A stretch of 64,000 bases of DNA. Source: Eledone cirrhosa. Lineage: Eukaryota. Positions 1-33,028 of this stretch are shown piece after piece (within the stretch, counting starts at the first letter, position 1; each line of letters starts with the position of its first letter). Location of the stretch: contig OZ024740.1 of NCBI GenBank assembly GCA_964016885.1, forward strand, positions 88,784,001-88,848,000. The letters are read 5' to 3'. The notes under the pieces are model-generated. The model saw only the letters and a program-made list of their open reading frames with translations. It did no database searches and was not told the DNA's origin. A program made the position numbers and the translations under genes.

Positions 1-2496
1 GTTGATGACATTGTAACTATAGGTTACTACTGGTATGGCAAGCGTGTTTATGGCATCGATCCTATTCCTTGCATTCAATTCCGTTCTTAAGATTGCTCTG
101 ACTCTGCGGTAACATTCCTTCCTTATCCTTTCCCTCATTGTCGAGTGCTTGATTCCGTCTCCTTCACAAACACCTAGATATTTTTAAGTTTGTTCTTGAT
201 CAAGCTCTCTTATCACGTTCCCCCGATCAAGATTAATGTCTGAACTCTTCAGCAGCTTTCCTCTGGTGAACGTTGCTTTGGCGCATTTATCCAGTCCAAA
301 CTCCATTTTAATGTCATCACTGAACTGCTTCACAGTGGATAATAGCCCTTGCAATTGTTCATCATTTTTTGCGAATAGTTTCAGGTCATCCATGTAGAAC
401 AGGTGATTAATGGTTTTGTCATAGACTCTATATCCATGTTTTGTTTCATTGAGCATTTTACTTAATGGTATAAGTGCGATGCAGAATAAAAGCAGTGATA
501 AAGAGTCACCCTGAAAAATTCCACAATTAATGTTAACTTCTCCAGCTTCCAGTGATTTTGTTTCACTATTCAAAAGGAGTGTCGTTCTCCATGTCCTCAT
601 ACTGAATGACAAAAACCTCCTGACAACGGGGGATATTTTGAAAATCTCTAAACATTTTTCAATCCAACTGTGTGGCAAACTATCAAATGCTTTTTTATAA
701 TCTATCCAAGCAATCGATAGATTTTTGTGTCTATTATGACAATCTTCCAGTATCATTTTGTTAACCAGAAGCTGATCCTTACAGCCATATGAGCCTCGTT
801 TACACCCTTTCTGCTCAATGGGAAATAGGTCATTTGTTATCAGGTGGTCATATGTGTATTCAGTTAGGACTGATGTTAAAATTTTATACATTGTGGTCAA
901 GCAGGTTATCGGTCTGTAATTTTTGGGATTGTTTGTCTCATCATTCTTCGGTAGCAGGAATGTAATGCCGTTAACTAGCCATGATGGTATATTTTCTGGC
1001 TCCTTAACTATTTCATTGTAAAGTTGGGCTAACAGCTCATGAGACTCTGTGAAGGCATTTATCCAAAAGTTTTGTATTTTGTCTTTTCCTGGGGATTTCC
1101 ATTTGCTGGTTTTTCTTAGAGCCAAGCGCAGCTGTTCAACTGTTATATTTTCCCATGTTTGTTCTTCAAGGTGAGCTGTTTCTTTCATTTGTCTGTCTAT
1201 CCATGGGGCATGTATGTTATGAACTCTTTCTTCGGCCCAGATCTTTTCCCAGAATTCTTGCACTTCCTCCATGGGTGGTATTGATTTAGCAGTTATTGTT
1301 GACTTACCAATTTTTCTGTAGAAGTTTCTTTGGTTGTTTTTGAACATATTATTGTCCTTATAGTATCTAGATCGTTTTTCAAAGCGCCTTATACGAGCAG
1401 CTTTGGCCGACACTTTTTGCTTGATTGTTTCTATCAGCATGTCTATGTCACATGTTGATTTTATACTGTACTTTTTTTTCAATTTTCTAAGTTTAGTTTG
1501 TTTAACATGTTCACCTACTTTATAGTTTGTTAAAATTTCTATGTCAGATCGGAGAAGGTTTATTTGGCGATTGATGTTATCTTGCCAAGTAGATTTCTTG
1601 TGGGAATTCCTTTGTTTTTTCATCTTCACTCCACATAAGTGAGTGGTGACTTTAGCCGATGCATAATAGAGATGATTTAAGTCAGTAATGTTTATTTTGT
1701 TTGTGATGATAATGTTTTTGAGAATTATGTTAGTCTTGTGTATTATCTTTTGGTTCTGTTTGGAGTTCTAGATCTTAGGGAGGGTGTCTCGTTCCCCCAT
1801 GTCAGATTCTTTCATTTTCATCCATTCGATCATAATTTCATCCTTCAAGTTGGCAAGTTCATTCTCATTCATTTCTTTATCATTTACGATCTCATTATTT
1901 TCATTTGGAGTTTCATCCTGAGCATGCACTCCCTCCACTTTTTCGCTCCTTTCTTTAATTTGTTCTGTTGCCAGTGATTCCGCCCCAACTCTGGGATTCG
2001 AAGTGTTACAGTTTACCTCGTTTTCACTGACACATGCTTCATTTTCCCTTCGCTGACTTTGTGCTACTAGCTTGATCTGATCAATTTCTATATCAGTTAG
2101 TAACTTTTTTCTTACAATATTTCTTCGTATATTGGCTAGTTTGTTACTGTCAATATAGCCTCTGTTTTCGGGATGTTTCTTTTTCCAGTTGATATATGTT
2201 TGCTCTGTATTCGATGTATTTGACGGGTAGTACATGGCAGTGTAGAAAGCCTCAAGGACTTCTTTATTATCTTCCCTTGACCATTTTTCTCTCTTTTTCT
2301 TTGGATTTCTTGGTGGTGAGCATGGAGGGCCAACAGTTGGAGTATTCCGGTTATGGGAGGTCTCCAGCTCCGAAGTGATGGGAAGGTTTGAACCATTAGC
2401 TGATTTTTCGACCCCAGTCTGGTTCCTCTCTGAGGGACGCGGCCCTTTTTTACCCGGGTGACGGCCGATCCGGTATGAGATTTCATCATTAGACAT
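1..2496 (-). pseudogene. Dong/R4-type reverse transcriptase ORF with two nonsense codons
   Basis: ORFs 1768..2496 and 184..1629 are in the same frame. YMDD catalytic motif is intact. Confidence 0.88.
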
Positions 2497-2660
2497 CCAC
2501 TTTATTTTGTCGCGTTTTATCCTTATCCGCCAAGGGGTAATCTTTTCGTGTTACCACTTCTAGAACGAGTGTCAACCAAGACTAGAGGGGTCGTTCTCCC
2601 CTAGAGACATGGCTATTCCCCGCCGGCCGCCATCCCGGTATTTCTTGGTCACGGGGTTTT
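1..2660 (-). mobile_element. R4/Dong-like non-LTR retrotransposon, family A, copy 1 (5' end present, runs off the window start)
   Basis: One reading frame from ATG 2496, broken by in-frame stops at 1768 and 184; copy 2 has CAA and TAC at those positions. RT motifs WKSPGKDKI, NYRPITCL, WIDYKKAFDS, GIFQGDSLS, HLFYMDDLKLF. Structured 5' leader at 2497-2660. Near-identical to part of 8426-11497. Confidence 0.9.
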
Positions 2661-2744
2661 CTTTTTGTTGTTTTTTTTAAATTGTTATTATCATGAGTGG
2701 TTCCTTAATGTGATCATTGCGTGGCTTAAGAATGAAATTATTAA

Positions 2745-2792
2745 TAATTGTCTCCACTCCAGGGACAAGGCCAGCAATCACCCAGTGCATTA
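2745..2792 (-). mobile_element. 3' tail fragment of the tRNA-derived SINE
   Basis: ttgtctccactccagggacaaggccagcaatcacccagtgcattac matches the reverse complement of the SINE tail at 60520-60566 and abuts AATAAT. Confidence 0.7.
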
Positions 2793-2998
2793 CAATAATA
2801 TAATATACTTTTTGTTGTAGTTGGCTGTTATTGCTGCTGGCTATGTCGGTGGTGGTGCCGGGGCTTTTTATATTGTTGGTGAGGAAGGGGTGAGCCAGCA
2901 GTCCCATAATTGTTGATGTAGACGTTTGTCCGTGGCAAGGTCACCAAGTCAATCTATTTATATCTTTTGCTAGCCTCTCTCTTGTCTAGTGCTACCAC

Positions 2999-5900
2999 CA
3001 ATGTGAGCCACAGTCTCCTCTCTCTCTCCACAGATCCTGCACAGTGGGCTAGCCTCCTCCTTGTAAATATGGTGCTTCAACCACTTCGTTTTGAGGGTCT
3101 GCTTCTGCGCAGCCATTAGCATTCCTTCTGTAGCCTTTTTGAGGTCTCCTCTTCTCAACCAGTTCCATGTCTATGGATCTCTAAATTCAGTTTTCTCAAA
3201 GAAGTTACTATGAAGGGATTTCCCTTAAGGCTGCTCTTCCTTCTTGATGTTATTTCCTCCTTGGATATCCCCTGGCCTACTGTCCCCTCCTTCAGTACAG
3301 TTCTGAGCATTGGCTCCTTACTATAGGTCACGTATTTGTATAGGTTGTTTTTCTCCATCTGAACACAGTCCTCTATGCTGATAAGACCTCTTCCACCCTC
3401 AGATCTCCTTAGGTAGAGTCTATCGACATCACTCCTCTTGTGGAACATGTTGTAGATAGTCAATAGCTTCCTAGTCTTCCTATCCATTTCTTTTTGTTCA
3501 GCAACATTCCATCTCAGAATTCCCGCACTGTACCTAATAATAGACACAGCTCGGGAATTTACTGCGCTTATGGCATTTCTGCTGTTCAGATGTGACTTCA
3601 ATACGCTCCTTATTCTCCGAATGTATTCAGTTCTTAACAATTCCTTCATTTTTTTGTTCTTTATGCCATCAGTCTCCAGAACGCCCAAATACTTGTATCC
3701 TTCCTCAGAGTCAATTTCCTTTATCATCTCACCTGTTGGTATCTGGATCCCGTTACTTCTGCTCAACCTACCCCTCCTCATCACAATGACTCCACATTTA
3801 CTAATACCAAACTGCATACATATATCACTGCTGAAGATACGGACAGTGTCAACAAGCACATCCAACTCCTTCTCACTTTTCCCGAAGAGCTTAAGATCGT
3901 CCATGAAGAGAAGGTGATTGATGGTAAGCTCTCCCTTTCCCAACTTGTATCCTGCTCTCACTTTTCGCAGCATAATGGTCAAGGGCATCAGGGCAAGGAC
4001 AAACAACAGAGGGGACAGGCTATCTCCCTGGAAGATACCTCTCTTGATCTTCACGCTTCCCAAGGATACTCCAGTTGATGTCAACTCTGTCTCCCAGGAC
4101 CCCATACTCCTGCCCAGCAACTGTCTGATGTTATCTGCCACCCTGAAGATCTCCAGGCTTTTGGTGATCCAAGAATGAGGCACAATGTCAAATGCCTTTC
4201 TGTAGTCTATCCATCCCATGGCAAGATCAGTGTGTCTCCTCCTGCAATTCCCCATTACCATCTTATCAATAAGTAACTGGTCCTTTGTACCACGTGACTT
4301 CTTTCGGCATCCTTTCTGTTCGTCCGGTAACAAGTTGTTTGTGTGGAGGTGATGGTAGATTTCCTCAGACACAATGCTCGTCAACAGTTTCCACATTACG
4401 GACAGACATGTGATAGGTCTATAGTTGGTAACATCATTACCCTTGATTCGGTCTTTCATTATCAGAACTGTGGTACCTTTTGTCAACCACTCTGGCACCT
4501 CACCCGACACCAAGCAGTCATTGAACATGGCCGTCAGCTTCGGGTGGAGGGATGTTAAATTTTTAATCCAATACCCCTGCACACCATCTGGGCCTGGTGA
4601 TTTCCAGTTGGTTAGTTGTTTGGCCTGCCCCTTAAGAGTTTCAACTGTGATACTCAAATCAGTTTGTTGGTGTGCCTGCTCACCGATCTCCCTCTGTACT
4701 GTCTCAATCCACCCTGCCTGGACATTATGTCTAACATCCTGCTCCCATATTCCTCTCCAGAATGTTTTAGTTTGCTCCGCCCCAGGGATCAAGTCGTTGC
4801 CTCTTTCTTTCCCCTCAAGCTGTCCAAACAGCATCTTCTGGTTGTTGTCGAACATGCGGTTCTGTTTATACTGACTGACTCTGTTCTCGTATCGCCTGAT
4901 TTTTGCACTCTTTGCTACAATGCGTTGCTTCAGTTCCTCTATGATAATATTTAGCTTTTTCCTCCTAGTTTTGTACTTTATTTCCAGTCTATTTTTAGTG
5001 CCTATGTTTTTTAGTGTCCCATTCAGTAGTGACTCAAGCTTTCCTATGTCATTTCTCATTTCCCCGATTTGACCACTCAGTCGTTTCTTCCACCACGGCT
5101 CTGCTCTTTCTTGTCTGTTGTTTCCTCTCGCTTTTATACCAAGTAGTTTCCTCACCGTATTTGCTGTTGCTTTGAGGATATTGTTGCACTGGTGAAGACT
5201 CCTCGCCTCAAGGTATGGGATGACTTTGTTTACCTTAGCTGTTGTTTCTTTTAACTTTTTCCTGTCTACAAATCTTAGGTTCATAGGTCTCCCACTATCA
5301 TTGTTCAATTCATCTACCACTAAATTTAGGATGTGAACCGAATCTTGTCCTAGCCCGTCAGCATTCATCTCCTCAGTGGCCGTATCTCTGTTCCAGGTAT
5401 TATTTATCTCAGTATTCAGATCATTGTCTGCTTCGGGTGGTTCCTCCGTTCTCAGGACCTCTTCACCTTCATTTCCAACTGGCTCGCTTGTCTGGCATAC
5501 TACACCCGCCATCTCCAAGCCATTCTCTCTGCTCAGTTCCTCCAGTTCCAGCTCGCTTATCCACCCATTAGTTCTTATTACCCGAGCCTGCCCGGCCAAT
5601 TTTTGTTCATCTAATTTAAATAGACCAATCTCGTTCCAGATGTTATGCATCCGTCTCCTGTAGCCCCTCTCCTTGAGGTTACTTTTCAGGTAACATTGCA
5701 TAACAGTTCTATTCAATTCTCTCGTCCAGTTGGTTCTGGCCCCTTTCCTTCTTCTTCTTTCTCCAACATCAGCAGTATTTGGTTGACAGTCAGGTTCCTG
5801 CTGCTGAGCCAGGGGGCACCTGTTGGGTGAGAGTCTGTCACATGACGTTCTAGTCTCCATTTCACCGTTATTCGAACTGTTTATGTTCGATATTTAAACA

Positions 5901-6318
5901 CTCTTATCGAGGATTGGCGAATGTATGGTTACATAGCCATCTGTGGATTCGCCGTTCCACTTGGCCTTTGTGTGGCATTATCACCACGCTGTATACGAAC
6001 ACACATAAACAAACAAACACACAGGCAGAGGGCCCCAAAAATGAATAAGCATAAGTTTCATTGTAATGTAGTGTTCGAATGTCTGACTTAGTTTTTGTTT
6101 TTTTAGTTTTAGTTTTTCCCCCCTCTTCTCTGTCCGTCCGCCTGCTTCTCTCTTCATTCTTATTTTCTTTACGTTTTTTGTTTTTTTTTGTTTTTGTTTT
6201 TCCCTGTTTGTTTTTCTCGTTTTTTGCTGTTGCTGCTTTGGTTTTGTTGTTTGTTTTTCCTTTTTTCTTTTGAGTCTATCTATATATTTTGATGCCTTCC
6301 TCTTTTTTAGTAGTAGGA
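2999..6318 (-). mobile_element. R4/Dong-like non-LTR retrotransposon, family B, copy 1 (5' complete, 3' end deleted)
   Basis: 901-aa ORF with RT motifs (WKSPGPDGV, NYRPITCL, WIDYRKAFD, GIFQGDSLSP, HLLFMDDLKLF). Frameshift near 3225, then the CRICGEREETVAH zinc knuckle. Homology to copy 2 stops at about 2999. The 5' side abuts (ATT)n at 6319. Confidence 0.88.
3155..5860 (-). pseudogene. Dong/R4-type RT ORF (901 aa), frameshifted before the zinc knuckle; RLE domain missing
   Basis: Supplied ORF 3155..5860 plus continuation in 2970..3158, compared with ORF 6979..8073. Confidence 0.87.

Positions 6319-6357
<39 letters not shown>
6319..6357 (+). repeat. (ATT)n microsatellite separating Dong-B copy 1 and the Tx1 fragment
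   Basis: Direct reading. Confidence 0.97.
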
Positions 6358-6359
<2 letters not shown>

Positions 6360-6686
6360 ACAAAATGTTGAAAGATGGGTGAGAGAAGCAAGAATGGCCC
6401 GAGTGAATGGGCCTACTCTCAGTATGTATCTGTAAATTAAAGGTGGAAAACTGGGAGAGGGCACTTGCCTTGGTGGTCAGGGTCACTATGGCCTTTTACT
6501 GGACTTTCTCCACAAATGTCCCTCCGAAGTCTCCCCCTTATTGGGGAATTTTTCATTGTCATTTTTTTGTTACATCCTCTGTTTTTGTTTTTTACACGCA
6601 TAAATGCCAAATTGTTACGTCCTGTATTGTCCTGCACTGTCCTTAATGTCTACTTTATGTAAACCCTTGTGGTTAATAAAGAAATC
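6358..6686 (+). mobile_element. 5'-truncated copy of the Tx1-like element (end of ORF2 + 3' UTR)
   Basis: Highly similar to 17095-17423 with the same terminus (cccttgtggttaataaagaaatc). Flanked by (ATT)n on both sides. Confidence 0.93.
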
Positions 6687-6701
6687 ATTATTATTATTAT
6701 T

Positions 6702-8363
6702 GTTCTTTGAGTCTCAGAACTGGAAAGTTTGTTGAAATGAATATCAAGCCACTACCTGCAGCCTCAGATATTCAGGACGTATCGGAGGGTTCTTGCTGTT
6801 CCCAGCAAGTATGCATTTTGAAGCGTTCCAAAAAGCGTGGCGGGGCCACATTTCTTTAACCATCCCTGTAAATTTTTGAGCTTGTACCTAGTGCGCCTTT
6901 GACTTCATGGCAGTTCCAAATCCTTTTTACCTCCCACTTTAAGTCCTGGTATCGGTTAATATTCTCCCTCTCCTTCTCTTACACTCTCGTGTCGAATGGG
7001 CAGGCCACATCTACAATCAGGCACGATCTTTTTTCCTTGTCCACAACCACCAGGTCAGGTCTATTGTGTTCCAGTTTCTTGTCCGTCTGTATCCTAAAAT
7101 CCCACAGCACCTTCAACTGATCGTTTTCTATCACCGACTCTGGCTTATGCTCATACCACTTCTCAGAATGTGGTAAATTGTTTACTTTGCATAGGTGCCA
7201 GTGGATCACCCTGTCCATCACATCATGTCTCCAGCCCTTATAGTGAGTCTGGGCTAGGTGTTTATACTCGGATACAATGTGAGCCACAGTCCCCTCTCTC
7301 TCTCCACAGATCCTGCACAGTGGGCTAGCCTCCTCCTTGTAAATATGGTGTTTCAACCACTTCGTTTTGAGGGCCTGCTCCTGCGCAGCCATTAACATTC
7401 CTTCTGTAGCCTTTTTAAGGTCTCCTCTTTTCAACCAGTTCCATGTTTGTGGATCTCTAAATTCAGCTTTCTGAAAGAAGGTACTATGAAGGGATTTTTC
7501 CTGAAGGATGCTCTTTCTCCTTGATGCTATTTCCTCCTTGGACATCCCCTGGCCTATTGTCCCCTCCTTCAGTACAGTTCTGAGCATTGGCTCCTTACTA
7601 TCGGTCACGTATTTGTGTAGGTTGTTTTTCTCCATCTGAACACAGTCCTCTATGCTGATAAGACCTCTTCCACCTTCAGATCTCCTTAAGTAGAGTCTAT
7701 CGACATCACTCCTCTTGTGGAACATGTTGTAGATAGTCAATAGCTTCCTAGTCTTCCTATCCATTTCTTTTTGTTCAGCAACATTCCATCTCAGAATTCC
7801 CGCACTGTACCTAATAATAGACACATCTCGGGAATTTACTGCACTTATGGCATTCCTACTGTTCAGATGTGACTTTAATACGCTCCTTACTCTCCGAATG
7901 TATTCAGTTCTTATCAATTCCTTTATTTTTTTGTTCTTGATGTCATCAGCCTCCAGAATACCCAAATACTTGTATCCTTCTTCAGAGTCAATTTCCTTTA
8001 TCATCTCACTTGTTGGAACCTGGATTCCGTTACTTCTGCTCAATTTGCCTTCTTCATCACAATGACTCCACACTTACTAATACCAAATTGCATACATATA
8101 TCATTGCTGAAAATACGGACAGTGTCAACAAGCACATCCAACTCCTTCTCACTCTTCCCGAAGAGCTTAAGATCGTCCATGAAGAGGAGGTGATTGATGG
8201 TAAGCCCTCCCTTTTCCAACCTGTATCCTGCTCACACTTTTCGCAGTACACTGGTCAGGGGCATCAGGGCAAGGACAAACAACAGAGGGGCCAGACTATC
8301 TCCCTGGAAGATACCTCTCTTGATCTTCACGCTTTCCAAGGATTCTCCAGTTGATGTTAACTC

Positions 8364-8364
<1 letters not shown>
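6702..8364 (-). mobile_element. Dong-like family B, copy 2 (5'-truncated; RT C-terminus, zinc knuckle, RLE endonuclease, 3' UTR)
   Basis: CRICGEREGTVAH, RHD, NRPDLVVVD..DVACPFD (PD-(D/E)xK-type RLE). C-terminus LLGTARTLRYVLNI* ends at 6764. Flanked by (ATT)n at 6687-6701 and 8365-8424. Confidence 0.92.

Positions 8365-8424
<60 letters not shown>
8365..8424 (+). repeat. (ATT)n microsatellite
   Basis: Direct reading. Confidence 0.98.
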
Positions 8425-8425
<1 letters not shown>

Positions 8426-8426
<1 letters not shown>

Positions 8427-11400
8427 AGTTGCATTTATTTTGCTTTATATTCATACGAGTTATCACCAAGTCACAACCAGTGACCTCAAGAGACAACAAG
8501 GTCCGCCATGTTCAAGAAATAACGTACATACTCACACATGCATCTTTAGTGTTTAGACTTGTGATGTACTTATATTGACAGAATCTTCCTTAGTATATGG
8601 GGAGTTCCCATTAGTACTATCTTTTATATTTCTCCTATACGCGGGTTTCCTGGGATTTGCGATAAGTAATCATTAGACCCCTTAGGTATCATTCCCAGAG
8701 CGCCTACAACCACTGGTATTGTTTTAGTTCTCAATTTCCACATTTTTCCAATTTCTATCTCCAGGTCCTTATACTTGCTCAATTTTTCAAATGTTTTTAT
8801 AGATACATTCTTGTCTATTGGAACAGACATATCAATTAGCAGGCATATCCTCTTTTTGAAGTCCTTCAATATTATATCAGGTCTTTTTGCATCTATTTTT
8901 CGGTCTGTTTGGATGCTAAAGTTCCACAAGATTGAGATGTGATCTTTTTCAAGTATGAGAGCTGGTTGATGCTCCCACCAATTCTTTTGATGGGGCAGGT
9001 CAAAATGCTTACACATTATCCAATGTATGTATTGTGCAGCTCTGTCATGCCTGTTTAGGTATTCGGTTGGATCTATAGGACTGCACATTGAAATTATATG
9101 GTCAATGGTCTCTTGTTGTTTTTTGCGTACACGGCATAATGGGCTGCACCCATTTTTTATTATGTTGGCTTGGTAATTTTTTGTTGGCAAACACTGATCT
9201 TGTGCCGATATGATCAGTCCTTCAGTCTCCGATTTCAGTCCAGAGGATGCCAACCACTGATGGGTTAAAGTTTCGTCAACATCAGGATTGTTAGCTCGCT
9301 CTGGGTATTTTCCATACAAAGGCTTTTCTTGCCATTTCTTAGCCAGTTTCTGTAGCAGTTCTTTCTTTGCAGTTACATTTACCTGCTTTGCTTTTTCTGT
9401 GTTTTCCATTTCAGCAGTAAATGGGACTTCTGAAATTTGTAGTCTATTACTGTATCTTTGTGCATCTTTTGTAATGGAATATGATCTTTTGATGCTTTCG
9501 TGTTTCAAAACGAGTTTGATCATCCAATCATGTGATTCCCTTAGATATTTAGATAATCCAATTGTTGCAGTTTTCAACGCAATGTCTAACTGGATTAACC
9601 CACGTCCTCCTTCTTTCCTAGGGAGATATATTCTATCTATATCTGCTCTAGGGTGATGCATTCTGCGCATGGTTAAGAATTTTCGAATTTTTGTATCGAG
9701 CCTACGGATCTCTGTGCTTGACCAGTTGATGACATTGTAACTGTAGGTTACTACTGGTATGGCAACCGTGTTTATGGCATCGATCCTATTCCTTGCATTC
9801 AATTCCGTTCTTAAGATTGCTCTTACTCTGCGGTAACATTCCTTCCTTATCCTTTCCCTCATTTTCGAGTGCTTGATTCCGTCTCCTTCACAAACACCTA
9901 GATATTTGTAAGTTTTTTCTTGATCAAGTTCTCTTATCACGTTCCCCCGATCAAGATTAATGTCTGAACTTTTCAGCAGCCTTCCTCTGGTGAACGTTCC
10001 TTTGGCGCATTTTTCTAGTCGAAACTCCATTTTAATGTCATCACTGAACTGCTTCACAGTGGATAATAGCCCTTGCAATTGTTCATCATTTTTTGCAAAT
10101 AGTTTCAGGTCATCCGTGTAGAACAAATGATTAATGGTTTTGTCATAGACTTTATATCCATGTTTTGTTTCATTGAGCATTTTACTTAATGGTATAAGTG
10201 CGATGCAGAATAAAAGCGGTGATAATGAGTCACCCTGAAAAATTCCACAATTAATATTAACTTCTCCAGCTTCCAGTGATTTTGTTTCACTATTCAAAAG
10301 GAGTCTCGTTTTTCATGTCTTCATACTGAATGACAAAAACCTCCTGACAACGGGGGATATTTTGAAAATCTCTAAACATTTTTCAATCCAACTGTGTGGC
10401 AAACTATCAAATGCTTTTTTATAATCTATCCAAGCAATCGATAGATTTTTGTGTCTATTATGACAATCTTCCAGTATCATTTTGTTAACCAGAAGCTGAT
10501 CCTTACAGCCATATGTGCCTCGTTTACACCCTTTCTGCTCAATGGGAAATAGGTAATTTGTTATCAGGTGGTCATATGTGTATTCAGTTAGGACTGATGT
10601 TAAAATTTGATACATTGTGGTCAAGCAAGTTATCGGTCTGTAATTTTGGGGATTGTTTGTCTCATCATTCTTCGGAAGTAGGAATGTAATGCTGTTAACT
10701 AGCCATGAAGGTATCTTTTCTGGCTCCTTAACTATTTCATTGTAAAGTTGGGCTAACAGCTCATGAGACTCTGTGAAGGCATTTATCCAAAAGTTTTGTA
10801 TTTTGTCTTTTCCTGGGGATTTCCATTTGCTGGTTTTTCTTAGAGCCAAGCGCAACTTTTCAACTGTTATATTTTCCCATGTTTGTTCCTCAAGGTGAGC
10901 TGTATCTTTCATTTGTCTGTCTATCCATAGGTTATGTATGTTATGAACTTTTTCTTCGGCCCAGATCTTTTCCCAGAATTCTTGCACTTCCTCCTTGGGT
11001 GGTATTGATTTAGCAGTTATTGTACACTTACCAATTTTTCTGTAGAAGTTTCTTTGGTTGTTTTTGAACATATTATTGTCCTTATAGAATCTAGATCGTT
11101 TTTCAAAGCGCCTTATACGAGCAGCTTTGGCCGACACTTTTTGCTTGATTATTTCTATCATCTTGTCTATGTCACATGTTGATTTTATACTTTACCTTTT
11201 TTTCAATTTTCTAAGTTTAGTTTGTTTAACACGTTCACCTACTTTATAGTTTGTTAACATTTCTATGTCAGATCGGAGAAGGTTTATTTGGCGATTGATG
11301 TTCTCTTGCCAAGTAGATTTCTTGTGGGAATTCCTTTGTTTTTTCATCTTCACTCCACATAAGTGAGTGGTGACTTTAGCCGATGCATAATAGAGATGAT

Positions 11401-11496
11401 TTAAATCAGTAATGTTTAGTGTGTTTGTGATGATAATGTTTTTGAGAATTATGTTAGTCTTGTGTATTATCTTTTGGTTCTGTTTGGAGTTTTGGA

Positions 11497-11497
<1 letters not shown>
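8426..11497 (-). mobile_element. Dong-like family A, copy 2 (5'-truncated, 3' complete)
   Basis: ORFs 10313..11161 and 8624..10297. RT has YTDD where copy 1 has YMDD. CRVRKKQQETIDHIISMC knuckle, RHD, KRPDIILKD..IDMSVP..EKLSKY RLE. Premature stop at 8624, natural stop at 8570. Flanked by (ATT)n. Confidence 0.93.

Positions 11498-11560
<63 letters not shown>
11498..11560 (+). repeat. (ATT)n microsatellite, left flank of the full-length Tx1
   Basis: Direct reading. Confidence 0.98.
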
Positions 11561-11941
11561 GGCGACCTACGTAGTAAATCGTATCATCGTGAGCTCCGCA
11601 AAGGTTTGTTATTTCCGTTTGTTAAAAATTGTCATTTATGGAAAATTTTATTGTTAACTGTTTATAAGCGCTCATACATTGTTTTCCGAAAAGGACACCC
11701 AAAAAGATTGTGGCCTTGTGCCCAAAATTTAAACTTTTATTATTATCAACAAATTTCTTTGAAAAAAAATGGTTAATTCACCTCTGCACCAAACAGCTGA
11801 AAGCCTTCCTCACAAATTAACACCTCACACCGACACCACCATTGTAAATGTTACTACGTTTGCCAACACAAAAAAAAAAATATAAGCAGTAGCAATATTT
11901 TAAATTTGTCTCAGGCAGACATTCATTTCCCGCCATTACCA

Positions 11942-13723
11942 ATGACTGCAGATGTTAAAGCCTCCACCACCACCACCACCGCGACAACCACGACCCCCAC
12001 CACCACCGCGACAACAGAAACAAAAGAAGAAAAAAATAAATTAACTCGTGATGTCGAAATGAAATCTGACGTCACCACCACCACAACTGAAACTAAAATT
12101 AATATTAACGATAGCAACAACAACAACAATGACATTATAAAACCGACCCTCAGTTTCGCCATCGTAGCAAAACAATTCGAAGCGTTCACGGTAACTCAAG
12201 AAGATTTAGAAAATGCCAAACAAATGGTAAAGAAAGATGGGTACAGGGTCAGCCTCACCCCCCGCCTAATAAAATGGAGCATCGGCGCCTGTGCACCGTG
12301 TCGTATAGAACAATAAATGTAAAATCGCGCCGAGTGGAACGGGCATCCGAGTCCCAAATCCAAAAAGCTTTGGGACATATGTGGGCAAGAAAAACCCACA
12401 TCAGACGTGAGCAAAAGTATGGAACCGTGGATGTGTTCTTTGAAACACCACAGGAGGCTAGAGAACACTCCATGGCCCCATTAAGAAGTGACGACTTCAC
12501 ACTCGTTCCAAGCTATTGTGGCCAGAGACTCGTAAAGATCAGGGTGACCCACGTTCCACCGGCCATCGAAATTCCCTGGCTAATAGCGGCTGTCCTCACC
12601 GGCATCGAAGCCAACACGAAAATAATAGCAGTAGCAAAAGAAAAGCAGGAAAACTGGTCCGGATCTGGGATGGAGCTCCTGATCCAAGCGGACCAAAAAA
12701 GCATTGAGGAGATCCCAGAGGTAATAGACCTCACTGACGGCAGCCACCTCACGGTAATTGTCGAGGGCAGAAGACCTAGGTGTGTCGTTTGTGGTGAAGG
12801 AACCCACCTAAGGGCTTTCTGCCCTCAGGCTAAAAGGTTGAGGCCACCTCTCCTACCCACCCCAGTGACACAACCATCAACACCACCAGTAGCAGAGATG
12901 GCAGCAACAACTGTAGCAGCAACAACAGAAGCAACTATAACAGCAACAACCCCAGCAACAGTAGCAAAACCAACACCACTACCACCACCAGCAAAACCAA
13001 CACCACCACCACCCAACGCTTCAGAACTAGCACCAGCGCCTACACCATCCACCACACCACAACCAAAACTAACGGCTGTGGAGGATTTTCCACTCCCCGG
13101 CCTATCACAACTGGAGACAGATTGTGACGACGAGGAGTGGGAAACGATATCCGGAAAAAAAAAAAGAAACCAAAAAAGAAAAAAATTCTCTTCCTTCCCC
13201 CTCCAAAAACAAAATACAGAGGGAAACAAATAAACTAAGAAACAAAAAAGTTAGGACAGATATGCCACCATCCACACCAGCATCACCAACCCCATCAACC
13301 CAAACACCAACACCATCACCATCATTAACTCCAACACCACCATCACCTACACCACAAAAGTCACCAAAATGCGAAACAGAAACAAACCCACAACAAACGC
13401 AGACAAAACAAAACAACCAAAACGATACACACTACACAGCATTAAATTTGAACAACAAGCAATTATTACACTACATCCAACACAACACCAGCATCACAGA
13501 AAAAGACTACACAACAACCCCAAAATTCACACCACCTCCACACATACAAATCACTCGCATCACACAGAAAACGTACATGACACTAAAACAAAAATTCCCC
13601 AAAGACATCGGAGACTTCCGACAAGCACTCTCCAGGAGGATTTATAAGGACATCCTTCCTGAGGAGGCCACAAGCAGTGAAAAGGATGGAAAAGCCGTCC
13701 TTCCCCTACGAGAAGTAAGGTAA
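11942..13723 (+). pseudogene. Tx1-like ORF1 (nucleic-acid-binding protein), two frameshifts
   Basis: Pieces 11906..12316, 12274..13233 and 13124..13723. CVVCGEGTHLRAFC = C-x2-C-x4-H-x4-C. Thr/Pro-rich low-complexity segments. One shift lies in or near the poly-A run at about 13155. Confidence 0.82.
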
Positions 13724-13757
13724 GTGGTCTTTCCCATCTTTTCCACTCCTTTTCAAC

Positions 13758-16700
13758 ATGACCTCACTCAGAATAGGCAGCATAAATGCGCGTGGCTTGG
13801 GGTCGTCATGGAAGCAGGGCCACCTGCTCAACGACCTCAGGTCACTAAACATAGATGTAGTGGCCATCAGCGAGACCAGAATCTCCGAAGCACAGGCTTT
13901 CGCACCGATCTTCGGCGGCTACGATGTGTACGCATCTCCCAGCCGTCCGGGATCGGGGGGAGGAGTTGCTGTGCTTTTTCGGAGAGGTTTGGATCTTGCC
14001 ATACGGGCCATCTTCCTGGACCCAGAAGGTAAGTTGGTGGTGCTGGACGTGACCAGCGGAGACGGGCAAGCTTTCAGGTTAGTGGCCGTCTATGCCCCGA
14101 CAGGAGCAGGGCGGCCTAATTTCTTCCGGCGTCTGGAGACCTTTCTTGGAACGTCCCGCTCTTTAGTGTTAGTGGGCGACTGGAACGGGATCTTAGATGC
14201 ACGCTGGGATTGTGTGGGATTAGTGGATAGGGAAGGAGGGTGCAAGAGTCTCACCAACCCGCTCAGACGTTTTGAACTGTCTGACAGGTACCGAATGGAT
14301 TTCCCGAATGTACCAATGTGGACTTGGACAAATCGCATAGGGTCATCCAGATCATATCTAGATAGAGTATTTTGTAGGGAAATAGATAGATCTAGCATAG
14401 GCTGTCCACAATTCAAGATAGTCAGCTACACGGACCACAAATTCGTGATCTGTGTGCTTGACTTAGGCTTCATAGACGAGGACCCGGCTACTGGAAGCTA
14501 AACGCGTCCTTACCAGCGCGCAAGGCCTACAGAGACCGGATTAGCGAGCTAGTTAAGCGGGCGTTGACGGGGGCCATCGTCAACAACAAGTGGTGGTTTG
14601 CTCTGAAAAGAGCAATTAGAATAGAGTCCATTAGGTTTAGTAAGACTTTAGCAATAGAGAAAAATAGAGCAGAGGGAGAATTAGTTAGAAAATTAGATGA
14701 GGCGCTTAGCAAAGGCATCGCGACCGACGTACTTGCGGCGAAATGACCCTTGACCAATTCTTCAATGCAAAGCACGAAGGCTGCGTTGTCAGAGCTAGGG
14801 TGCGTCCTCTCAGACACGAGGGGACGAAAGCCGTTCAATGGGCCCGAGTGGCGGAGGCGCGTCGTGGCAACAAAGCCACGATCCGGTCTTTGGTGGACCA
14901 CGACGGGCGCATGCTACTCGATCCTGGGCAAATGTGTGAAGCTTTTCAGCGACACTTCGCTCAACTGTTCGGGGGCAGTGGCGGGCCGGATCGAGGGATG
15001 GACTTTAGTGTCTACCTCGACGGACTGCCGCGGCTTTCGGCCACTGAGGCGGAGTGTTGCGAAAAGCCGATAACAACCGCTGAAGTACGGGATGCAATGA
15101 CTAGTTGCACAAGGGCTAAATCGCCTGGTTTGGATGGTCTGCCCTATGAACTTTACGTACAAATGCCAAACTTGTTCGGAGCCCTCTTGGCGGACGTCTA
15201 CTGCAACTGGCAACAGAACGGGAGAATTCCCAGCTCTGTGAGCCGAGGAGCGGTGGCGCTGCTGAGAAAGGATCCGAACAAGGGGGATAACATAGATAAT
15301 TTTAGGCCCATAACTCTGCTAAACACAGAGTTCAAGATTTTGGCCAAGGTGCTAGCAAAGAGGTTGGCGCTTGTCGTTGGTGGTCTGGTGGGAGAGGCAC
15401 AGACATGCGCCATTCCCGACAGATCCATCCACGACAACCTCCACCTCATGCGATACATCGTAGAGAGGGTAGCTAGGGAACCTGGCACGGGTGGGTCTTT
15501 GATCAATTTAGATCAGTCGAAAGCCTTCGATAGGGTCGACCATCGTTACCTAGCGGCAGTCCTGAGGGCGGCTGGCTTTGGGCCCGTCTTCAGAGGCTGG
15601 ATCGCTGCCATGCACAGCGACATCTGCTCTGTAGTGAGAGTGAACGGTCATCTTTCGGAACCGTTCAACATCATGCGCTCGGTCCGCCAAGGATGTCCCC
15701 TCTAGTCCCTATTGTACGTATTGTCTCTCGAGCCATTACTGCACAAACTGGAGACGTTGAGGGGGGTCCCGCGCGAACTAGGATGCGGAAGATCCGTGTC
15801 AGCATATGCCGACGATGTCACCGTAGTGGTGTCGAACGCCAAACACATCGAGGCGATCGGCACTACACTAAGAGAATACGAAGCGGTGACAGGAGCAATG
15901 ATCAACCAAGAAAAGTCAGTGGGCCTGCAGCTTGGCACCTGGAGAGGCAGGTCCATGCCGTCCAACAGCGTCGTCGGACGCTGGACAGACGGACCGGTTA
16001 AATTGCTAGGGGTCTGGTTGGGTCCGGACCTCCAGACGGACAAAAACTGGGACGAGGTGACGAGCAGGGTGGCTTCTCTCACCCAGAAATGGGCGGAGAG
16101 GAAGCTATCCCTGAAATGTCGAGCGGAGGTGGCTAACGCGTACATCGCGTCTGTCATCTGCTACCGCCTGACCGTCGTACCTTGTCCTAATCCTCGCCTG
16201 ACTGCGCTGGAGCGTTTAATCTTTCGGTTTTTGTGGAAGGGACGCGCTCCGATGGTCAGGCGGTCCATCTGTTGTCAACACCCGCTACGTGGAGGGCTGG
16301 GCATGCCGTGGCTGATAATGCGCAGGCACGCGCTCAGGCTACAACATCTCCACCTTTTCCTCGACGGTGATCAGGTGTGGTCGCCGTTTGCTAGACACGT
16401 ATTTCCCCAGCTCGTTTCCTTGACGGAGCTGCAGTCCTGGGTCAAGCGAAGACCGAGAGGGAGCGCCTGGAGACTGGAATGTCTTCAGGCGCTCACAGCC
16501 CTTGACCAATCGGGCAATGTGATCGGTGGAAACTCCACCTCGGCGTTCTATAGAGGATTAGTGGAGGGGAAGAGCGACGACGTACTTGGAGAAACTCTAG
16601 GCGTCGACGAAAATCAACTAGCCAATCTCTTCGGAAGAACTTTCGGGCCAGGGCCTATGTACAACTTCCAGAAATCTCTGGCCTGGCAGTGCTACCGAGG

Positions 16701-17172
16701 AATCTTGCCAGTTCGGGATAAACTCTACAGGCATGGAGGTGCCGTCAGCCGGGCATGTCCGAGATGCGCGCAGGGCGACGAAACCGTCCTGCACGCACTC
16801 GTCCAGTGTCCGAAAATTGCTGACTTGTGCGTTTATGTCGAACACCTGCTGTCGCGTGTAGGACGGATCCGGCTATCATCTGAGTCCATCGTGAGGATTG
16901 CCCCGCCCTCCTCATTTAGCTGGGAAGGGCAGGCAGTTTTTATCTGTCTGGTGGCCATGGCGAAAGAGATAGTATGGTGGACACGTTTGAAAGGTTTGAA
17001 GACGAGCACTTACCTCTTCGGTGATGCCCTGATTGACTTTTTCAAATTTCATTTGAAAAGGAAAATCAGAGTAGAGAGGGAAGTACTCTCTTCCCAGCAT
17101 TTTGTTGAAAGATGGGTGAAAGAAGCAAGAATGGCCCGATTGAATGGGCCTACTCTGAGTATATATCTGTAA
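13758..17172 (+). pseudogene. Tx1-like ORF2: AP endonuclease, reverse transcriptase, zinc finger (two frameshifts, one stop)
   Basis: APE motifs SINARGL, DVVAISET, VYAP, GDWN, LDRVF, TDH, then GPGYWKLN in the shifted frame. RT motifs SPGLDGLP, FRPITLLN, LDQSKAFDRVDH, VRQGCPL*P, YADD. CPRCAQGDETVLHALVQC. Confidence 0.93.
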
Positions 17173-17421
17173 ATTAAAGGTGGAAAATTGGGAGAGGGCA
17201 CTTGCCTTGGTGGTCAAGGTCACTGTGGCCTTTTACTGGGCTTTCTCCACAAATGTCCCTCCAAAGTCTCCCCCCTATTGGGGAATATTTCATTGTTATT
17301 TTTTTGTTACATCCTCTGTTTTTGTTTTTTACACGCAGAAATGCCCATTTGTACCGTACTGTATTGTCCTGCACTGTCCTTAATGTTTACTTCATGTAAA
17401 CCCTTGTGGTTAATAAAGAAA

Positions 17422-17423
<2 letters not shown>

Positions 17424-17480
<57 letters not shown>

Positions 17481-17500
17481 GTTATTATTATTATCATTAT
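17424..17500 (+). repeat. (ATT)n microsatellite, right flank of the Tx1
   Basis: Direct reading. Confidence 0.97.
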
Positions 17501-18250: not shown

Positions 18251-18325
18251 GTTGTCGTCGTAGTATTTCTTATAGTTGTAGTAGGCATCAGCATCAGCAG
18301 CATTGATAGTAATAATAATAATAAT

Positions 18326-18490
18326 GTTTCTACATTTGGCACAAGGCCAGCAATTACCCAGTGATTTACTGTGCTTTATTTATCGACCGCGTAAGGATGA
18401 AAGGCAAAGCTAATCTCGGCGATATTTGAACTCAGAACGTAAAGGAGCATAACTCTATACCGCAAAGCACAGTGTCTGACGCTCTACAGA
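18326..18490 (-). mobile_element. tRNA-derived SINE (MetaSINE-like), diverged copy
   Basis: Aligns by eye to the reverse complement of 60382-60566. 3' end abuts (AAT)5. Confidence 0.8.
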
Positions 18491-18504
18491 TAATAACAAT
18501 ATTC

Positions 18505-18629: not shown

Positions 18630-18890
18630 CAATAGACTCTCCGATGGTGTATTTAACCTGCTCAACCAAGCGAACATCTATGTACCTTGGATACATACGA
18701 TACGTTGGCTCATTTTATGCTTAAAGTATCGACTGTACTACTTTCCCAACAGTATACATATATATATATATTAGTTGACTAAAGTTATTTCATCTAAGGA
18801 ATGTAAGTTTTAAAAACAATGTATTTCTAGCTGAATTGATAAAACTATTCAGATATTTATATCAGTATGAAACATAAACACCAATGATAA

Positions 18891-19071
18891 TTGTTTCTAC
18901 TTTAGGCACAAATCCAGCAAATTAACCAGTGCATTACTGGTACTTTATTTTATCGACCCCGTAAGGAGGAAAGGCAAAGTCAACCTCGGCGGGATTTGAA
19001 CTCAGATCGTAAAGGGACGTAACTATGCTGGAAAGCATGGCGTCTGACCCTCTACCGATACTGCCAATCCA
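18891..19071 (-). mobile_element. tRNA-derived SINE (MetaSINE-like), near full length
   Basis: Near-identical to the reverse complement of 60382-60566. Confidence 0.9.
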
Positions 19072-23739: not shown

Positions 23740-26390
23740 ATAATAATAAATTTGAAGACTAAAATCCAATGAGGGCTCGATAAGGATAAATATATATCAA
23801 ATATATAAGAACCGTAGAGCAAATATTTATTAAAATAACAGATTAAAGTTTAAGCAAAGAATCGCTGCTTTCACCCTTTATCCAATTCGACATCAATAAT
23901 TACTACTCCTCCATCACTTTACCACTTATACTTAGAGCTATCAATTTCGCTAAAACACTCACAGTGTTTAAGGATTTCGAAATTGAGGTCATCCTCAATG
24001 CCCGTAAGTCGGTGATTAATTTCGACGACTCTATATGGATTAAAAAATCTAATGGTACCCCATTCGACGTGAGTATGGGCGCCAGCGATTCTGCGGAGGT
24101 TGCTGATCTTATCGGCCTTTTCCTTCTTTTCTCTATCAAGGACGAATTCCCCAACGCGGGCGGTAGTTTGTACCGTGATGATGGTCTTTTGACCATGACT
24201 AAGTGCGGCCCACGTGCTTGCGACAGGTTCAGAAAAGAACTCACAGCCTTCTTTAAAGGCTTCAACCTCTCGGTCGTTAATTACCTCGACGTTACCCTCA
24301 ATTTATCGAATGGCTTGTATTATCCGTATAGAAAGCCGAATGATACGCTTAATTACATAATTAAGCATTCTAACCATCCTGCCATCTTAACCAAGAACCT
24401 GATAAGAAACGTTTCTTTGAGGCTTTCCCGTCTATCTACTAACGAGCTTATTTTCAACGACCACTACACATATTACAATGAAGCTCTTGCTCGGAGTGGA
24501 TTTGTCGATAAGGTAGCATATACAGAGTATGAGAATAGACTTAGAATAAATAGATCCCGACGCATTATATGGTATACCCACCATATAATTTGGAGGTGGC
24601 CATATTTCTCCCTTATTATGAAGCATTTTCTTTCCCATATTATGAAAAATTTTCCCCTACACATAAATATAGTAACATTTTTAATAGAAATACTATTAAC
24701 ATTTCTTACTCTACGACTCCTAACCTTGATCATAACATCAGAGCTTCAAATTTAGCTAAAATACCTATCTGTAGGAACACGTGCAACCCTGTAGTTAGTA
24801 CTAACTGTAATTGTATGAATCGGATTGACTACCCCCTATCCGGGAAATGCCTCTCTAGTAACATTGTCTACAAATGTAAGGTTGAAACACCCACGTCCCG
24901 TAGGGCCTACATAGGGTTAATCGCCAATAGTTTCAAGCAGCGTCTTTACATGCATACCCATTATTTTCGTTACCCTTTAAGAAGGAATTTGACGTCACTT
25001 TCAGCTTATATCTGGAGTCTAAAAGACAACCATACCCAATATAAGTTACACTGGGATATCCTAGCTAGGGCTAGGACGTATAACGGAAATAAATGACCAT
25101 GTGACCTCTGCGCCGCTGAGGCCCTGGAAATACTCTACGCTAAAGACCACATCTTAAACAAAAGATCTGAGGCAATTTCGGCTTGTAAACATAAATTGCA
25201 CAAAACTTTCCTGTATTACAGCCCCACATTATACCCTAACGGATAGTACGAACTATACGCGGAAATTTTACGTCTTGATATGGTAGCTAAGTATATGTTA
25301 TGTTTATACCATTACTTATTTGTATAGGTAAGTATATATTACCTGCATGTTTTGTGAAGATACGTATACTTCCTCGTATTATATTTGATTGTATATGTTA
25401 TGTCGTATATATTATATATTCTGGTACATATGCTTTTGGTTACGTGTATACGTGAGATTTGTGTCTGTGTGAGTATGCGGATTGATACGTATGTAGGGTG
25501 TGTGTATATGTGTACTTCGTGTTTTGGTGGACGTACGTCTCCGAACATATGTGTATTTACATGTAGATATGTGTGTGCGCTTGTTATATACGTATTTATT
25601 TATTTATATACATTTATTTAATTATTTGTATACACGCACACACACACACATACTCTTTTACTCTTTTACCTGTTTCAGCCATCCGGCTGAGGCCATATAT
25701 ATATATATAATTTCTTATATATATTTTTATGTGTAATTGGTGTATACATTCGTATGCGTGCGAGTACAGGCGTTGCGTGGGTTCTGTATGTGCGTGCGGG
25801 ATTTTATTTTGTGTGTACGTGCGTGTATTTGTATACCTATGGCGAGTATTTTTGCGTATGCTTGTGTTTGTACGTATATGGATGCGTGTATGTATTTATT
25901 TAATTTCAATTAGTTCTGTGTTGTATTTACTTTATTCTTAACTCTGAAGCCGAGAATCATTCGGTTTCCTAGCTAGAATTTTAGTCTACGACTTCAGTTA
26001 TGCCACTTACGTGGTTTTGTCTTTGCGTGCAATTGTTCTCCCCGCTCCACATATGATGTATTATCTTCGTTTTTTTCCGTTCATTGCCAGAGAACGTCTC
26101 TATGAACCACCTAATAGAATATTAGTCTACGACTTCTTTTATACCATAAACGTGGTTTTGTCTTTGCGTGTAATTGTTTTCCACCGCTCCAAATAATGAC
26201 GTATTATATTCGTATTTTTCCCGTTCTATGCCAGGGAACGTTTCCACGAACCAAAGTATCGTCTTCCTCCGGTTGCAACTTTTGAAATATTCACTTCTAC
26301 GTTCACAGATTAATTTTGTTTGTTTCAAAAGATCCCGTTAAGGGTGAAAGCAGCGATTTTGTGCTTAAACTTTAATCTGTTAATTTAATA
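23737..26390 (+). mobile_element. Penelope-like element family A, copy 1, with inverted 5' pseudo-LTR fragment, in (TA)n
   Basis: RT motifs IQFDINNYYSSI, FDVSMGASDSAEVADLIG, YRDDG, VNYLDVTLNL, SNHP. Linker CNCx5(C/Y)PLSGKC. GIY-YIG NIVYKC..AYIGL..FKQR. C-terminal CDLC and CKH. Part of 23737-23878 is the reverse complement of 26339-26390. Confidence 0.9.
25970..26255 (+). repeat. Tandem duplication (about 140-bp unit) in the 3' region of PLE-A
   Basis: tagaat..tagtctacgacttc..cgtggttttgtctttgcgt..gaacca occurs twice. Confidence 0.85.
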
Positions 26391-32858: not shown

Positions 32859-32955
32859 GTATATATGTATATATATATATACATATATATATATTTACAT
32901 ATTATATACGTATATATATATATTATATACATATATATATTTACATATATATATT

Positions 32956-33025
<70 letters not shown>

Positions 33026-33028
<3 letters not shown>

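What the first reader, a model, noticed from the sequence alone, without database searches (positions are those of the whole stretch)
6319..17500. Chain of retrotransposons in one (ATT)n microsatellite: two unrelated endonuclease classes share the target on opposite strands
Seen: DongB(-)|(ATT)n|Tx1 fragment(+)|(ATT)n|DongB(-)|(ATT)n|DongA(-)|(ATT)n|Tx1(+)|(ATT)n. Every junction is an ATT array, and no element is inserted inside another's body. All RLE elements read AAT on their sense strand, and both APE elements read ATT. Known: Dong targets TAA repeats, and some Tx1-clade families (Kibi, Koshi) target TC or TTC repeats. I do not recall an ATT-specific Tx1 family. Inference: convergent targeting, with each insertion regenerating target for all three families and so producing a self-extending array.
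Basis: partly seen in the sequence, partly recalled or inferred. Interest (0 to 1): 0.76.

Follow-up and report, generated by a model that had tools for sequence, protein, structure and literature searches.

The report
Rival retrotransposons chaining in ATT repeats
Throughout this octopod-like genome, two unrelated kinds of jumping gene sit in the same ATT repeat facing opposite ways and build long chains, likely because their different cutting enzymes both recognise the repeat and each insertion leaves fresh repeat for the next.

Summary
Observation confirmed, and it holds genome-wide. The window has five (ATT)n arrays joining DongB(-), a Tx1 fragment(+), DongB(-), DongA(-) and a full-length Tx1(+). 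The chain runs about 7.6 kb further left, through one junction without ATT.

ATT is a target, not just a tail. Runs of 3 or more units abut 5'-truncated ends in 11/12 DongA, 18/23 DongB and 9/23 Tx1 copies (background 0.3%). An ATT-tailed CR1-like control has 2 or more units in 0/11. Polarity holds at 568/576 element ends. 37 arrays lie head-to-head and are the tail of neither neighbour. In 390 kb of unselected DNA, 17/24 long AAT runs touch these LINEs, against 0/324 AT runs.

Refinement: the ATT-strand target is a short ATTATT motif with 9-20 bp target-site duplications, seen in truncated Tx1 copies and a co-oriented SINE. Dong needs longer arrays.

Precedents exist for each ingredient: Dong/TAA, Kibi/Koshi, Keno/Utopia, TRAS1/SART1. 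Ten searches found no ATT-targeting Tx1 and no such mixed chain, but Repbase could not be checked. Verdict: new variant of a known kind. Enzyme specificity is inferred, not assayed.

The parts
1..2998 (-). DongA (R4/Dong-like RLE LINE), left extension of the chain; its 3' end and an (ATT)8 lie about 1.3 kb left of the window; 5' leader cut at reference position ~399
   Evidence: (L160)
2999..6318 (-). DongB copy lacking its 3' ~590 nt (fused to DongA without ATT) and ~1.1 kb of 5' leader; 912-aa open frame 3155-5893 with RT
6319..6357 (.). (ATT)13, head-to-head array between the 5' ends of DongB and the Tx1 fragment: tail of neither
6358..6686 (+). 5'-truncated Tx1 3' fragment (match 6366-6686; 93.6% to the full copy, so a separate insertion)
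6687..6701 (.). (ATT)5, tail-to-tail array between Tx1 and DongB
6702..8364 (-). 5'-truncated DongB (C-terminal RT, CCHC, PD motif, 3' UTR); 93.8% to the other DongB copy
8365..8424 (.). (ATT)20 between the DongB 5' truncation and the DongA 3' end
8425..11497 (-). 5'-truncated DongA (RT, CCHC, RLE PD motif; one in-frame stop); 96.6% to the other DongA copy
11498..11560 (.). (ATT)21, head-to-head array between the DongA 5' truncation and the Tx1 5' end: tail of neither
11561..17423 (+). Full-length Tx1-clade APE LINE (subfamily a): 5' UTR, ORF1 with a CX2CX4HX4C knuckle (~11800-13233, frameshifted), ORF2 APE-RT-zf (13758-17172, broken by stops and a frameshift), 3' UTR
17424..17500 (.). (ATT)19 plus degenerate units; right end of the chain

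Best explanation
The locus is a chain of separate insertions by two RLE (Dong/R4-like) families lying on the AAT-reading strand and an APE (Tx1) family lying on the ATT-reading strand, likely because the two unrelated endonucleases nick opposite strands of the same repeat during target-primed reverse transcription. Shown: fixed polarity; ATT/AAT at truncated 5' junctions; head-to-head arrays; target-site duplications (TSDs) of 9-20 bp that start at ATTATT for truncated Tx1 and a co-oriented SINE; insertion of later SINEs into the tails of earlier elements. Inferred: the Tx1 APE nicks the AAT strand opposite a two-unit ATTATT motif, the RNA's short AUU end primes there, and the second nick falls 9-20 nt downstream. 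The Dong RLE nicks the ATT strand and needs a longer array, with both cuts inside it. Each event splits one array into two and copies a few units, and slippage would lengthen them, so occupied sites stay good targets and chains grow. Also inferred: an ATT-tailed CR1-like LINE that inserts without ATT preference seeds new arrays, and the SINE borrows the Tx1 machinery.
For: Truncated 5' junctions with 3 or more units within 20 nt: DongA 11/12, DongB 18/23, Tx1 9/23 (2 or more: 12/23); antisense unit 0/58. Background 0.29% and 1.8%. CR1-like tail-only control 0/11, Fisher p=0.0026 vs Tx1. 5' ends on the expected strand: Dong 133/134, Tx1 87/89, SINE 42/42; all ends 568/576; 37 of 390 arrays are Dong-5'|Tx1-5'. 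The upstream truncated Dong never resumes after the Tx1: 0/10. Tx1 TSDs reaching into unique DNA: 3/19 by a strict test, null maximum 1 in 1000 re-pairings. SINE TSDs: 17/32 in unselected DNA, 11-20 bp, 15/17 starting at ATT, sites with only 2-3 units in 16/17; null mean 1.1, maximum 5. SINEs inserted into Tx1 tails (L034, L037) and SINE tails (L193, L205, L216). Repeat specificity: 17/24 AAT runs of 18 nt or more touch a Dong/Tx1 end vs 0/324 AT, 1/60 AC, 0/30 AG, 0/12 AGT, 0/14 ATC, 2/9 AAC, 0/3 AAG. Window copies of one family differ by 3-6%, so they are not tandem duplicates.
Against: No enzyme assay: sequence cannot tell endonuclease specificity from selection by RNA-primer pairing. 11 of 23 truncated Tx1 junctions have fewer than 2 units: 3 unresolved mosaics, 1 inversion, 2 SINE fusions, 1 DongB fusion, 4 plain misses. 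Full-length Tx1 abut ATT far more often than truncated ones (45/47 vs 11/19, p=0.0004), which suggests part of the 5' array may ride in on the RNA. No Dong TSD could be shown (2/34, null reached it 70/1000). The SINE-Tx1 3' likeness is weak (116/2000 shuffles for Tx1a, 12/2000 for a third Tx1 tail). At least one Dong array arose by tandem duplication. Loci are the best 20-30 BLAST matches of 48-1,966 candidates per search, so samples lean to young copies.
Confidence: 0.75

Rival explanations
1. Targeting on the Tx1 side comes from RNA rather than from the enzyme. A loosely specific APE nicks A/T-rich DNA, only nicks that pair with the AUU-ended RNA get extended, and full-length transcripts read through from the upstream array carry an (AUU)n leader that anneals at the 5' junction.
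For: Full-length 45/47 vs truncated 11/19 abutting ATT. A SINE in L158 has ATT-like bases between its TSD and its head. The target needs only two units. R2 elements with upstream-cleaving ribozymes carry target RNA at the 5' end (PMC3774820, passages).
Against: The CR1-like LINE also ends in ATT yet shows no ATT at truncated 5' junctions (0/11), so an AUU tail alone does not give targeting here. In the literature the endonuclease mainly sets target choice (PMC4494074; PMC7265360).
Confidence: 0.25
2. ATT/AAT is only a 3' tail. Chains form because tails and elements pile up in permissive regions.
For: All families, including a CR1-like LINE, end in the repeat. Elements are clumped in the unselected sample.
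Against: 37 head-to-head arrays are the tail of neither neighbour. TSD upstream copies start at ATTATT. The CR1 control is 0/11. Other microsatellites are not touched.
Confidence: 0.03
3. Chains are built by recombination between arrays, tandem duplication, or RT template jumping from one RNA to the next, not by serial insertion.
For: C2:353.61-353.64 Mb holds seven head-to-tail DongA starts; the six units between them are 99.8-99.96% identical and share a frameshift. SINE/Tx1 fusions at short homology (L050, L052). The ATT-less junction at window 2999. 38 same-strand Dong-Dong junctions could include jumps.
Against: In the window, same-family copies differ by 3-6% and have different truncation points. 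Template jumping cannot join opposite-strand elements. TSDs show ordered insertions into earlier tails.
Confidence: 0.1
4. One machine moves everything: Tx1 RNA is mobilised by the Dong protein, or the reverse, so there is no convergence.
For: Shared repeat; Dong and Tx1 copies are of similar age (96-98% to their queries).
Against: Opposite polarity. Different stringency (p=0.0015). Tx1 makes TSDs into unique DNA while Dong junctions stay in the array. Tx1 encodes its own APE, and near-complete ORF2 copies exist.
Confidence: 0.03

Closest known systems
Dong (B. mori Dong, DongAg, DongBg; R4 lineage, RLE)
   Same: TAA-repeat target (PMC3812793, passages); single ORF with RT, CCHC and a PD-type RLE; Dong-R4 is abundant and recently active in octopus (PMC13282606).
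   Different: Two lineages only 37% identical in protein share the target and a ~325-nt 5' leader. No HDV-like ribozyme was found by Rfam or my descriptor, whereas B. mori Dong has one (PMC3774820).
Kibi (TC)n, Koshi (TTC)n and crocodilian Tx1 (TTCC/TTTC)n (Tx1 clade, APE)
   Same: Tx1-type two-ORF APE elements with a microsatellite target (PMC4494074, passages and section 15). (TTA)n differs from Koshi's (TTC)n by one base.
   Different: Target is ATT/TTA, in a mollusc, with a short two-unit core. Relationship to Kibi/Koshi is untested: no reference sequence was available. The family forms an octopod clade (98/99 support) sister to unnamed proteins of 42-45% identity.
Keno (APE) and Utopia (RLE) at U2 snRNA
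   Same: [quoted passage not shown]
   Different: There the 3' flanks are identical (same strand) and the target is a low-copy gene. Here the two classes use opposite strands of a dispersed repeat in one genome and interleave in chains.
TRAS1 and SART1 in (TTAGG)n telomeric repeats
   Same: Two families insert into one repeat in opposite directions and recognise only 2-3 units (PMC7265360, passages).
   Different: Both are APE elements and confined to telomeres. Here one is RLE and one APE, and the sites are genome-wide.
SINEU-3 / Tx1-Mar
   Same: A SINE shares the target of a Tx1 family and inserts serially in tandem around a TSD (PMC4494074).
   Different: That target is a Mariner transposon, not a repeat shared with an RLE family.

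Membership tests
Tx1 clade (L1 group, APE) | ORF2 with N-terminal APE, RT and C-terminal zinc finger | tested here: met
   PF03372, PF00078, PF13966; end-to-end match to L1 ORF2p structures, E 6e-52
Tx1 clade (L1 group, APE) | Separate ORF1 with a CCHC zinc knuckle | tested here: met
   CX2CX4HX4C motif read directly in ORF1; that it typifies Tx1 is recalled
Tx1 clade (L1 group, APE) | RT phylogeny groups with named Tx1 families (Tx1L, Keno, Kibi, Koshi) | tested here: inconclusive
   Best named non-octopod hits are a tilapia RT protein (30%) and a coral 'Transposon TX1' protein (31%); tree has no reference of known target
Tx1 clade (L1 group, APE) | Target preference (sequence in more than 20% of flanks, criterion of PMC4494074) | tested here: met
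   29/29 and 20/20 full-length; 12/23 truncated
Kibi/Koshi subgroup | (TC)n or (TTC)n-type target | tested here: not met
   Flanks and TSDs are ATT; TTC runs appear only occasionally next to the ATT
Dong (R4 clade, RLE) | Single ORF with RT, C-terminal CCHC finger and PD-(D/E)xK-type endonuclease, no APE | tested here: met
   Alignment to R2 proteins runs through the finger to the PD motif; no APE Pfam hit
Dong (R4 clade, RLE) | Insertion in TAA repeats | tested here: met
   Truncated 29/35 with 3 or more AAT units; all 30 full-length loci have an AAT run upstream, 10 with an AAG run between
Dong (R4 clade, RLE) | RT phylogeny with B. mori Dong and R4 | not testable with these tools
   Homologue search returned no named Dong or R4 protein among the 120 listed of 1,432 hits
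Dong (R4 clade, RLE) | 5' HDV-like ribozyme (shown for B. mori Dong) | tested here: inconclusive
   No Rfam match on L295 and L296; own descriptor found none but had no positive control
SINE partner of this Tx1 | Shared 3' tail and shared insertion geometry | tested here: inconclusive
   Geometry matches (ATT start, 9-20 bp TSD); tail likeness is weak

The most novel reading that the evidence does not exclude
One trinucleotide organises a genome-scale retroelement community in octopods. A CR1-like LINE seeds ATT arrays, RLE and APE lineages convergently colonise opposite strands, most long AAT microsatellites are retrotransposon junctions, about 7% of the genome sits in these LINEs, and the chains act as exchange platforms where lineages only 37% identical in protein swap 5' leaders.
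Probability: 0.3. Interest if true: 0.78.

Novelty: new variant of a known kind. Interest (0 to 1): 0.58.

Why it matters
It would add a new target (ATT) to the Tx1 clade and a case where RLE and APE enzymes share one dispersed repeat on opposite strands within a genome. Dong-R4 and L1-Tx1 are among the most active LINEs in octopus (PMC13282606), yet the octopus papers read say nothing about where they insert. A self-renewing target could help explain LINE clumping and the origin of long AAT microsatellites in cephalopods, and it warns that AAT markers there often sit at element junctions. The ATTATT core with 9-20 bp TSDs makes the open question of how APE elements recognise microsatellites directly testable with a small purified domain.

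Tried and rejected
Nesting of Tx1 inside Dong bodies: rejected, 0/10 resume.

First automated TSD test: counted pure-repeat strings, so it was discarded and redone. A Fisher test printed used wrong counts and was redone. One genome search used the wrong strand of L100 and sampled DongB 3' regions instead of 5' leaders; it was repeated correctly, and L230-259 were used only in the polarity tally and the non-random SINE set.

Ribozyme: Rfam, folding (z 0.3-1.0) and a descriptor found nothing.

Targets of the closest non-octopod relatives: the metagenome scans gave nothing or only relatives of 35% identity or less, 2 of 80 with any run of 4 or more ATT/AAT units. Cluster look-up gave one name only. 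No RNA holder was listed. Contigs of three other organisms cover the Tx1 3' region but showed no usable flanks; for the 5' region only one of the three had a contig.

Literature searches found no ATT-targeting Tx1. Two papers were not held, supplements of PMC4494074 were unavailable, and its Fig. 3 target list is not visible. Four look-ups of earlier findings returned nothing.

Full report
SETTING. The window is G000:C1:88,784,001-88,848,000 of a 3.0-Gb assembly. The closest named homologue of the Tx1 protein is from Argonauta hians at 74% identity, so the host is taken to be octopod-like; nothing further was sought.

OBSERVATION. The plus-strand elements are an APE-RT-zinc-finger LINE with an ORF1 zinc knuckle. 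The minus-strand elements are single-ORF RT elements whose C-terminus aligns with R2 proteins through the CCHC finger to the PD motif. DongA and DongB are only 37% identical in protein. The chain is longer than reported: a DongB at 2999-6318 and a DongA that ends in (ATT)8 about 1.3 kb left of the window, making six elements over about 18.8 kb. The junction at 2999 has no ATT. Same-family copies differ by 3-6%, and all are broken or truncated.

SAMPLING. Each own-genome search scored 40 of 48-1,966 candidates and returned the best 30 loci (20), so samples lean to young copies. Queries stopped at the element boundary and do not select on the flank. For background I fetched 39 of 40 requested 10-kb stretches at round coordinates.

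TARGET OR TAIL. All 29 non-self full-length Tx1a loci have an ATT run at the 5' junction, as do 20 of 20 starts of a second subfamily, Tx1b, which shares ORF2 but has a different 5' region. All 30 full-length Dong loci have an AAT run upstream; 10 have an AAG run in between and 7 belong to one tandem array. Full-length ends could carry the repeat on their RNA, so truncated copies are the real test. Among copies sampled by the 3' end whose 5' junction lay inside the locus, 3 or more units end within 20 nt in 11 of 12 DongA, 18 of 23 DongB and 9 of 23 Tx1 (2 or more units: 11, 20, 12). The opposite-strand unit reached 3 in 0 of 58. Background is 0.29% and 1.8%. The 23 Tx1 rows include 3 unresolved mosaics and 1 inversion; dropping them leaves the 19 used for TSD tests. 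A natural control turned up: a LINE with CR1-like motifs (clade label recalled, not from a call) ends in ATT but has 2 or more units at 0 of 11 truncated 5' junctions (p=0.0026 vs Tx1, 1e-7 vs Dong). Seven of its 18 oriented copies were left out because the junction was internal or near the locus edge.

POLARITY. Over 390 distinct arrays of 4 or more units in element-selected loci (own-window search loci and the C2 tandem removed), 568 of 576 element ends follow the rule Dong=AAT, Tx1 and SINE=ATT. For 5' ends alone the counts are 133/134, 87/89 and 42/42. Thirty-seven arrays sit between a Dong 5' end and a Tx1 5' end and are the tail of neither; two such arrays are in the window. In 10 of 10 testable cases the truncated Dong does not resume beyond the Tx1, so Tx1 is not nested in Dong.

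WHAT THE APE SIDE RECOGNISES. Three of 19 truncated Tx1 copies have TSDs of 9, 12 and 17 bp that begin in ATT and run into unique DNA; 1000 re-pairings never gave more than 1. L041 and L176 look the same by eye but miss the strict rule. A co-oriented ~180-bp SINE gives more cases: 17 of 32 full-length copies in unselected DNA have TSDs of 11-20 bp (null mean 1.1, maximum 5), 15 start at ATT, and 16 of the 17 sites have only 2-3 units. So the ATT-strand target is a short ATTATT motif, and long arrays are dense runs of it. Tx1 adds little tail of its own: 16 of 58 copies have 2 or fewer uninterrupted units at the 3' end, some because of point changes. Dong is stricter (29/35 vs 9/23, p=0.0015), and no Dong TSD could be separated from the repeat. 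That the SINE uses Tx1 proteins is inferred from geometry; 3' sequence likeness is weak.

SELF-RENEWAL. SINEs at L034 and L037 inserted exactly at the ATT tail of a Tx1 and duplicated it, and others inserted in tails of earlier SINEs. This shows order and reuse directly. In the unselected 390 kb, 17 of 24 AAT/ATT runs of 18 nt or more touch a Dong or Tx1 end, against 0/324 AT, 1/60 AC, 0/30 AG, 0/12 AGT, 0/14 ATC, 2/9 AAC and 0/3 AAG. Multi-element chains occur in 4-5 of the 39 stretches. Tx1 covers 3.3%, Dong 3.8% and the SINE 2.1% of the sample; these are rough figures because the elements are clumped. One CR1-like copy with its own (ATT)6 and no colonist lies in L199, as seeding predicts.

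RESULTS AGAINST. Eleven of 23 truncated Tx1 junctions lack 2 units. Full-length Tx1 abut ATT more often than truncated copies (45/47 vs 11/19, p=0.0004; one of the 2 misses is a spurious internal motif match), so part of the 5' array may come in on a read-through RNA. One Dong array is a tandem duplication: six units at 99.8-99.96% identity with a shared frameshift. Insertions into element bodies do occur, such as a SINE in Tx1 ORF1 at a single ATT with a 17-bp TSD. No enzyme or expression data were available.

MECHANISM. By established target-primed reverse transcription, an element's sense strand is the one not nicked first. Tx1 would therefore nick the AAT strand and Dong the ATT strand (inferred). 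Each insertion splits an array and copies a few units; slippage would extend them (inferred).

COMPARISON. Dong targets TAA, Kibi TC and Koshi TTC (PMC3812793, passages). Crocodilian Tx1 target TTCC/TTTC (PMC4494074, passages and section 15; Fig. 3 and supplements not seen). Keno (APE) and Utopia (RLE) converged on U2 (PMC4640811, passages). TRAS1 and SART1 enter (TTAGG)n in opposite directions using 2-3 units (PMC7265360, passages). B. mori Dong self-cleaves at its TAA junction (PMC3774820, passages). Octopus papers list Dong-R4 and L1-Tx1 as abundant or active, and what I read gives no targets (PMC13282606, parts 1-2 of 3; PMC8967140, passages; PMC9115989, passages). Ten searches found no ATT-targeting Tx1 and no mixed RLE/APE chain. 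Kojima and Fujiwara 2004 and Repbase were not readable, so I put the chance that such a family is already catalogued at about 30%. The RT tree puts the family in an octopod clade (98/99) sister to unnamed proteins and contains no reference of known target.

VERDICT. Real, genome-wide and well supported as shared, strand-opposed targeting. Each ingredient has a precedent; the ATT-targeting Tx1 and the combination appear new. New variant of a known kind; interest 0.58.

Noticed in passing
L260-L289; L309 vs L295: DongA and DongB (37% protein identity) share a ~325-nt 5' leader at 94-98%: 22 DongA, 6 DongB and 2 unassigned loci. This points to a recent leader swap between distant lineages.
   Followed up: partly
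L121-L147: Tx1 subfamilies a and b share ORF2 and 3' UTR (94-97%) but show no direct blastn match over 5' UTR/ORF1; both start right after ATT. Most 3'-sampled copies are near full length, unusual for a LINE.
   Followed up: partly
G000:C2:353,611,522-353,644,000 (L290-L294): Seven head-to-tail DongA starts 4,911-4,915 bp apart; the six units between them are 99.8-99.96% identical with a shared frameshift: tandem duplication inside a mixed chain.
   Followed up: yes
L390-L409: CR1-like LINE with an ATT tail but no ATT at truncated 5' junctions; candidate seeder of new ATT arrays.
   Followed up: partly
L191 (G000:C1:20,000,001-20,010,000): Tandem satellite with ~27-bp spacing whose unit matches a 34-nt piece of the CR1-like element at 97-100%.
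   Followed up: no
L050, L052: SINE fused directly to a truncated Tx1 at short homology, like a template-switch chimera.
   Followed up: no
L268, L269, L274, L276, L277, L282, L284, L285, L287, L289: (AAG)n runs replace AAT just upstream of 10 of 30 full-length Dong 5' ends.
   Followed up: no
window 23847-25411 and 31701-35240: Two related degraded elements (88.5% identical) with RT-like and C-terminal endonuclease-like motifs resembling Penelope elements (label recalled; no Pfam hit).
   Followed up: no
window 18325-18500 and 18883-19071 (-), further copies to 63,733: Copies of the ~180-bp ATT-tailed SINE; ARAGORN finds no tRNA in the window.
   Followed up: partly
window 2998-2999: DongA leader joined to the DongB 3' region without ATT; probable deletion inside the chain.
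   Followed up: partly
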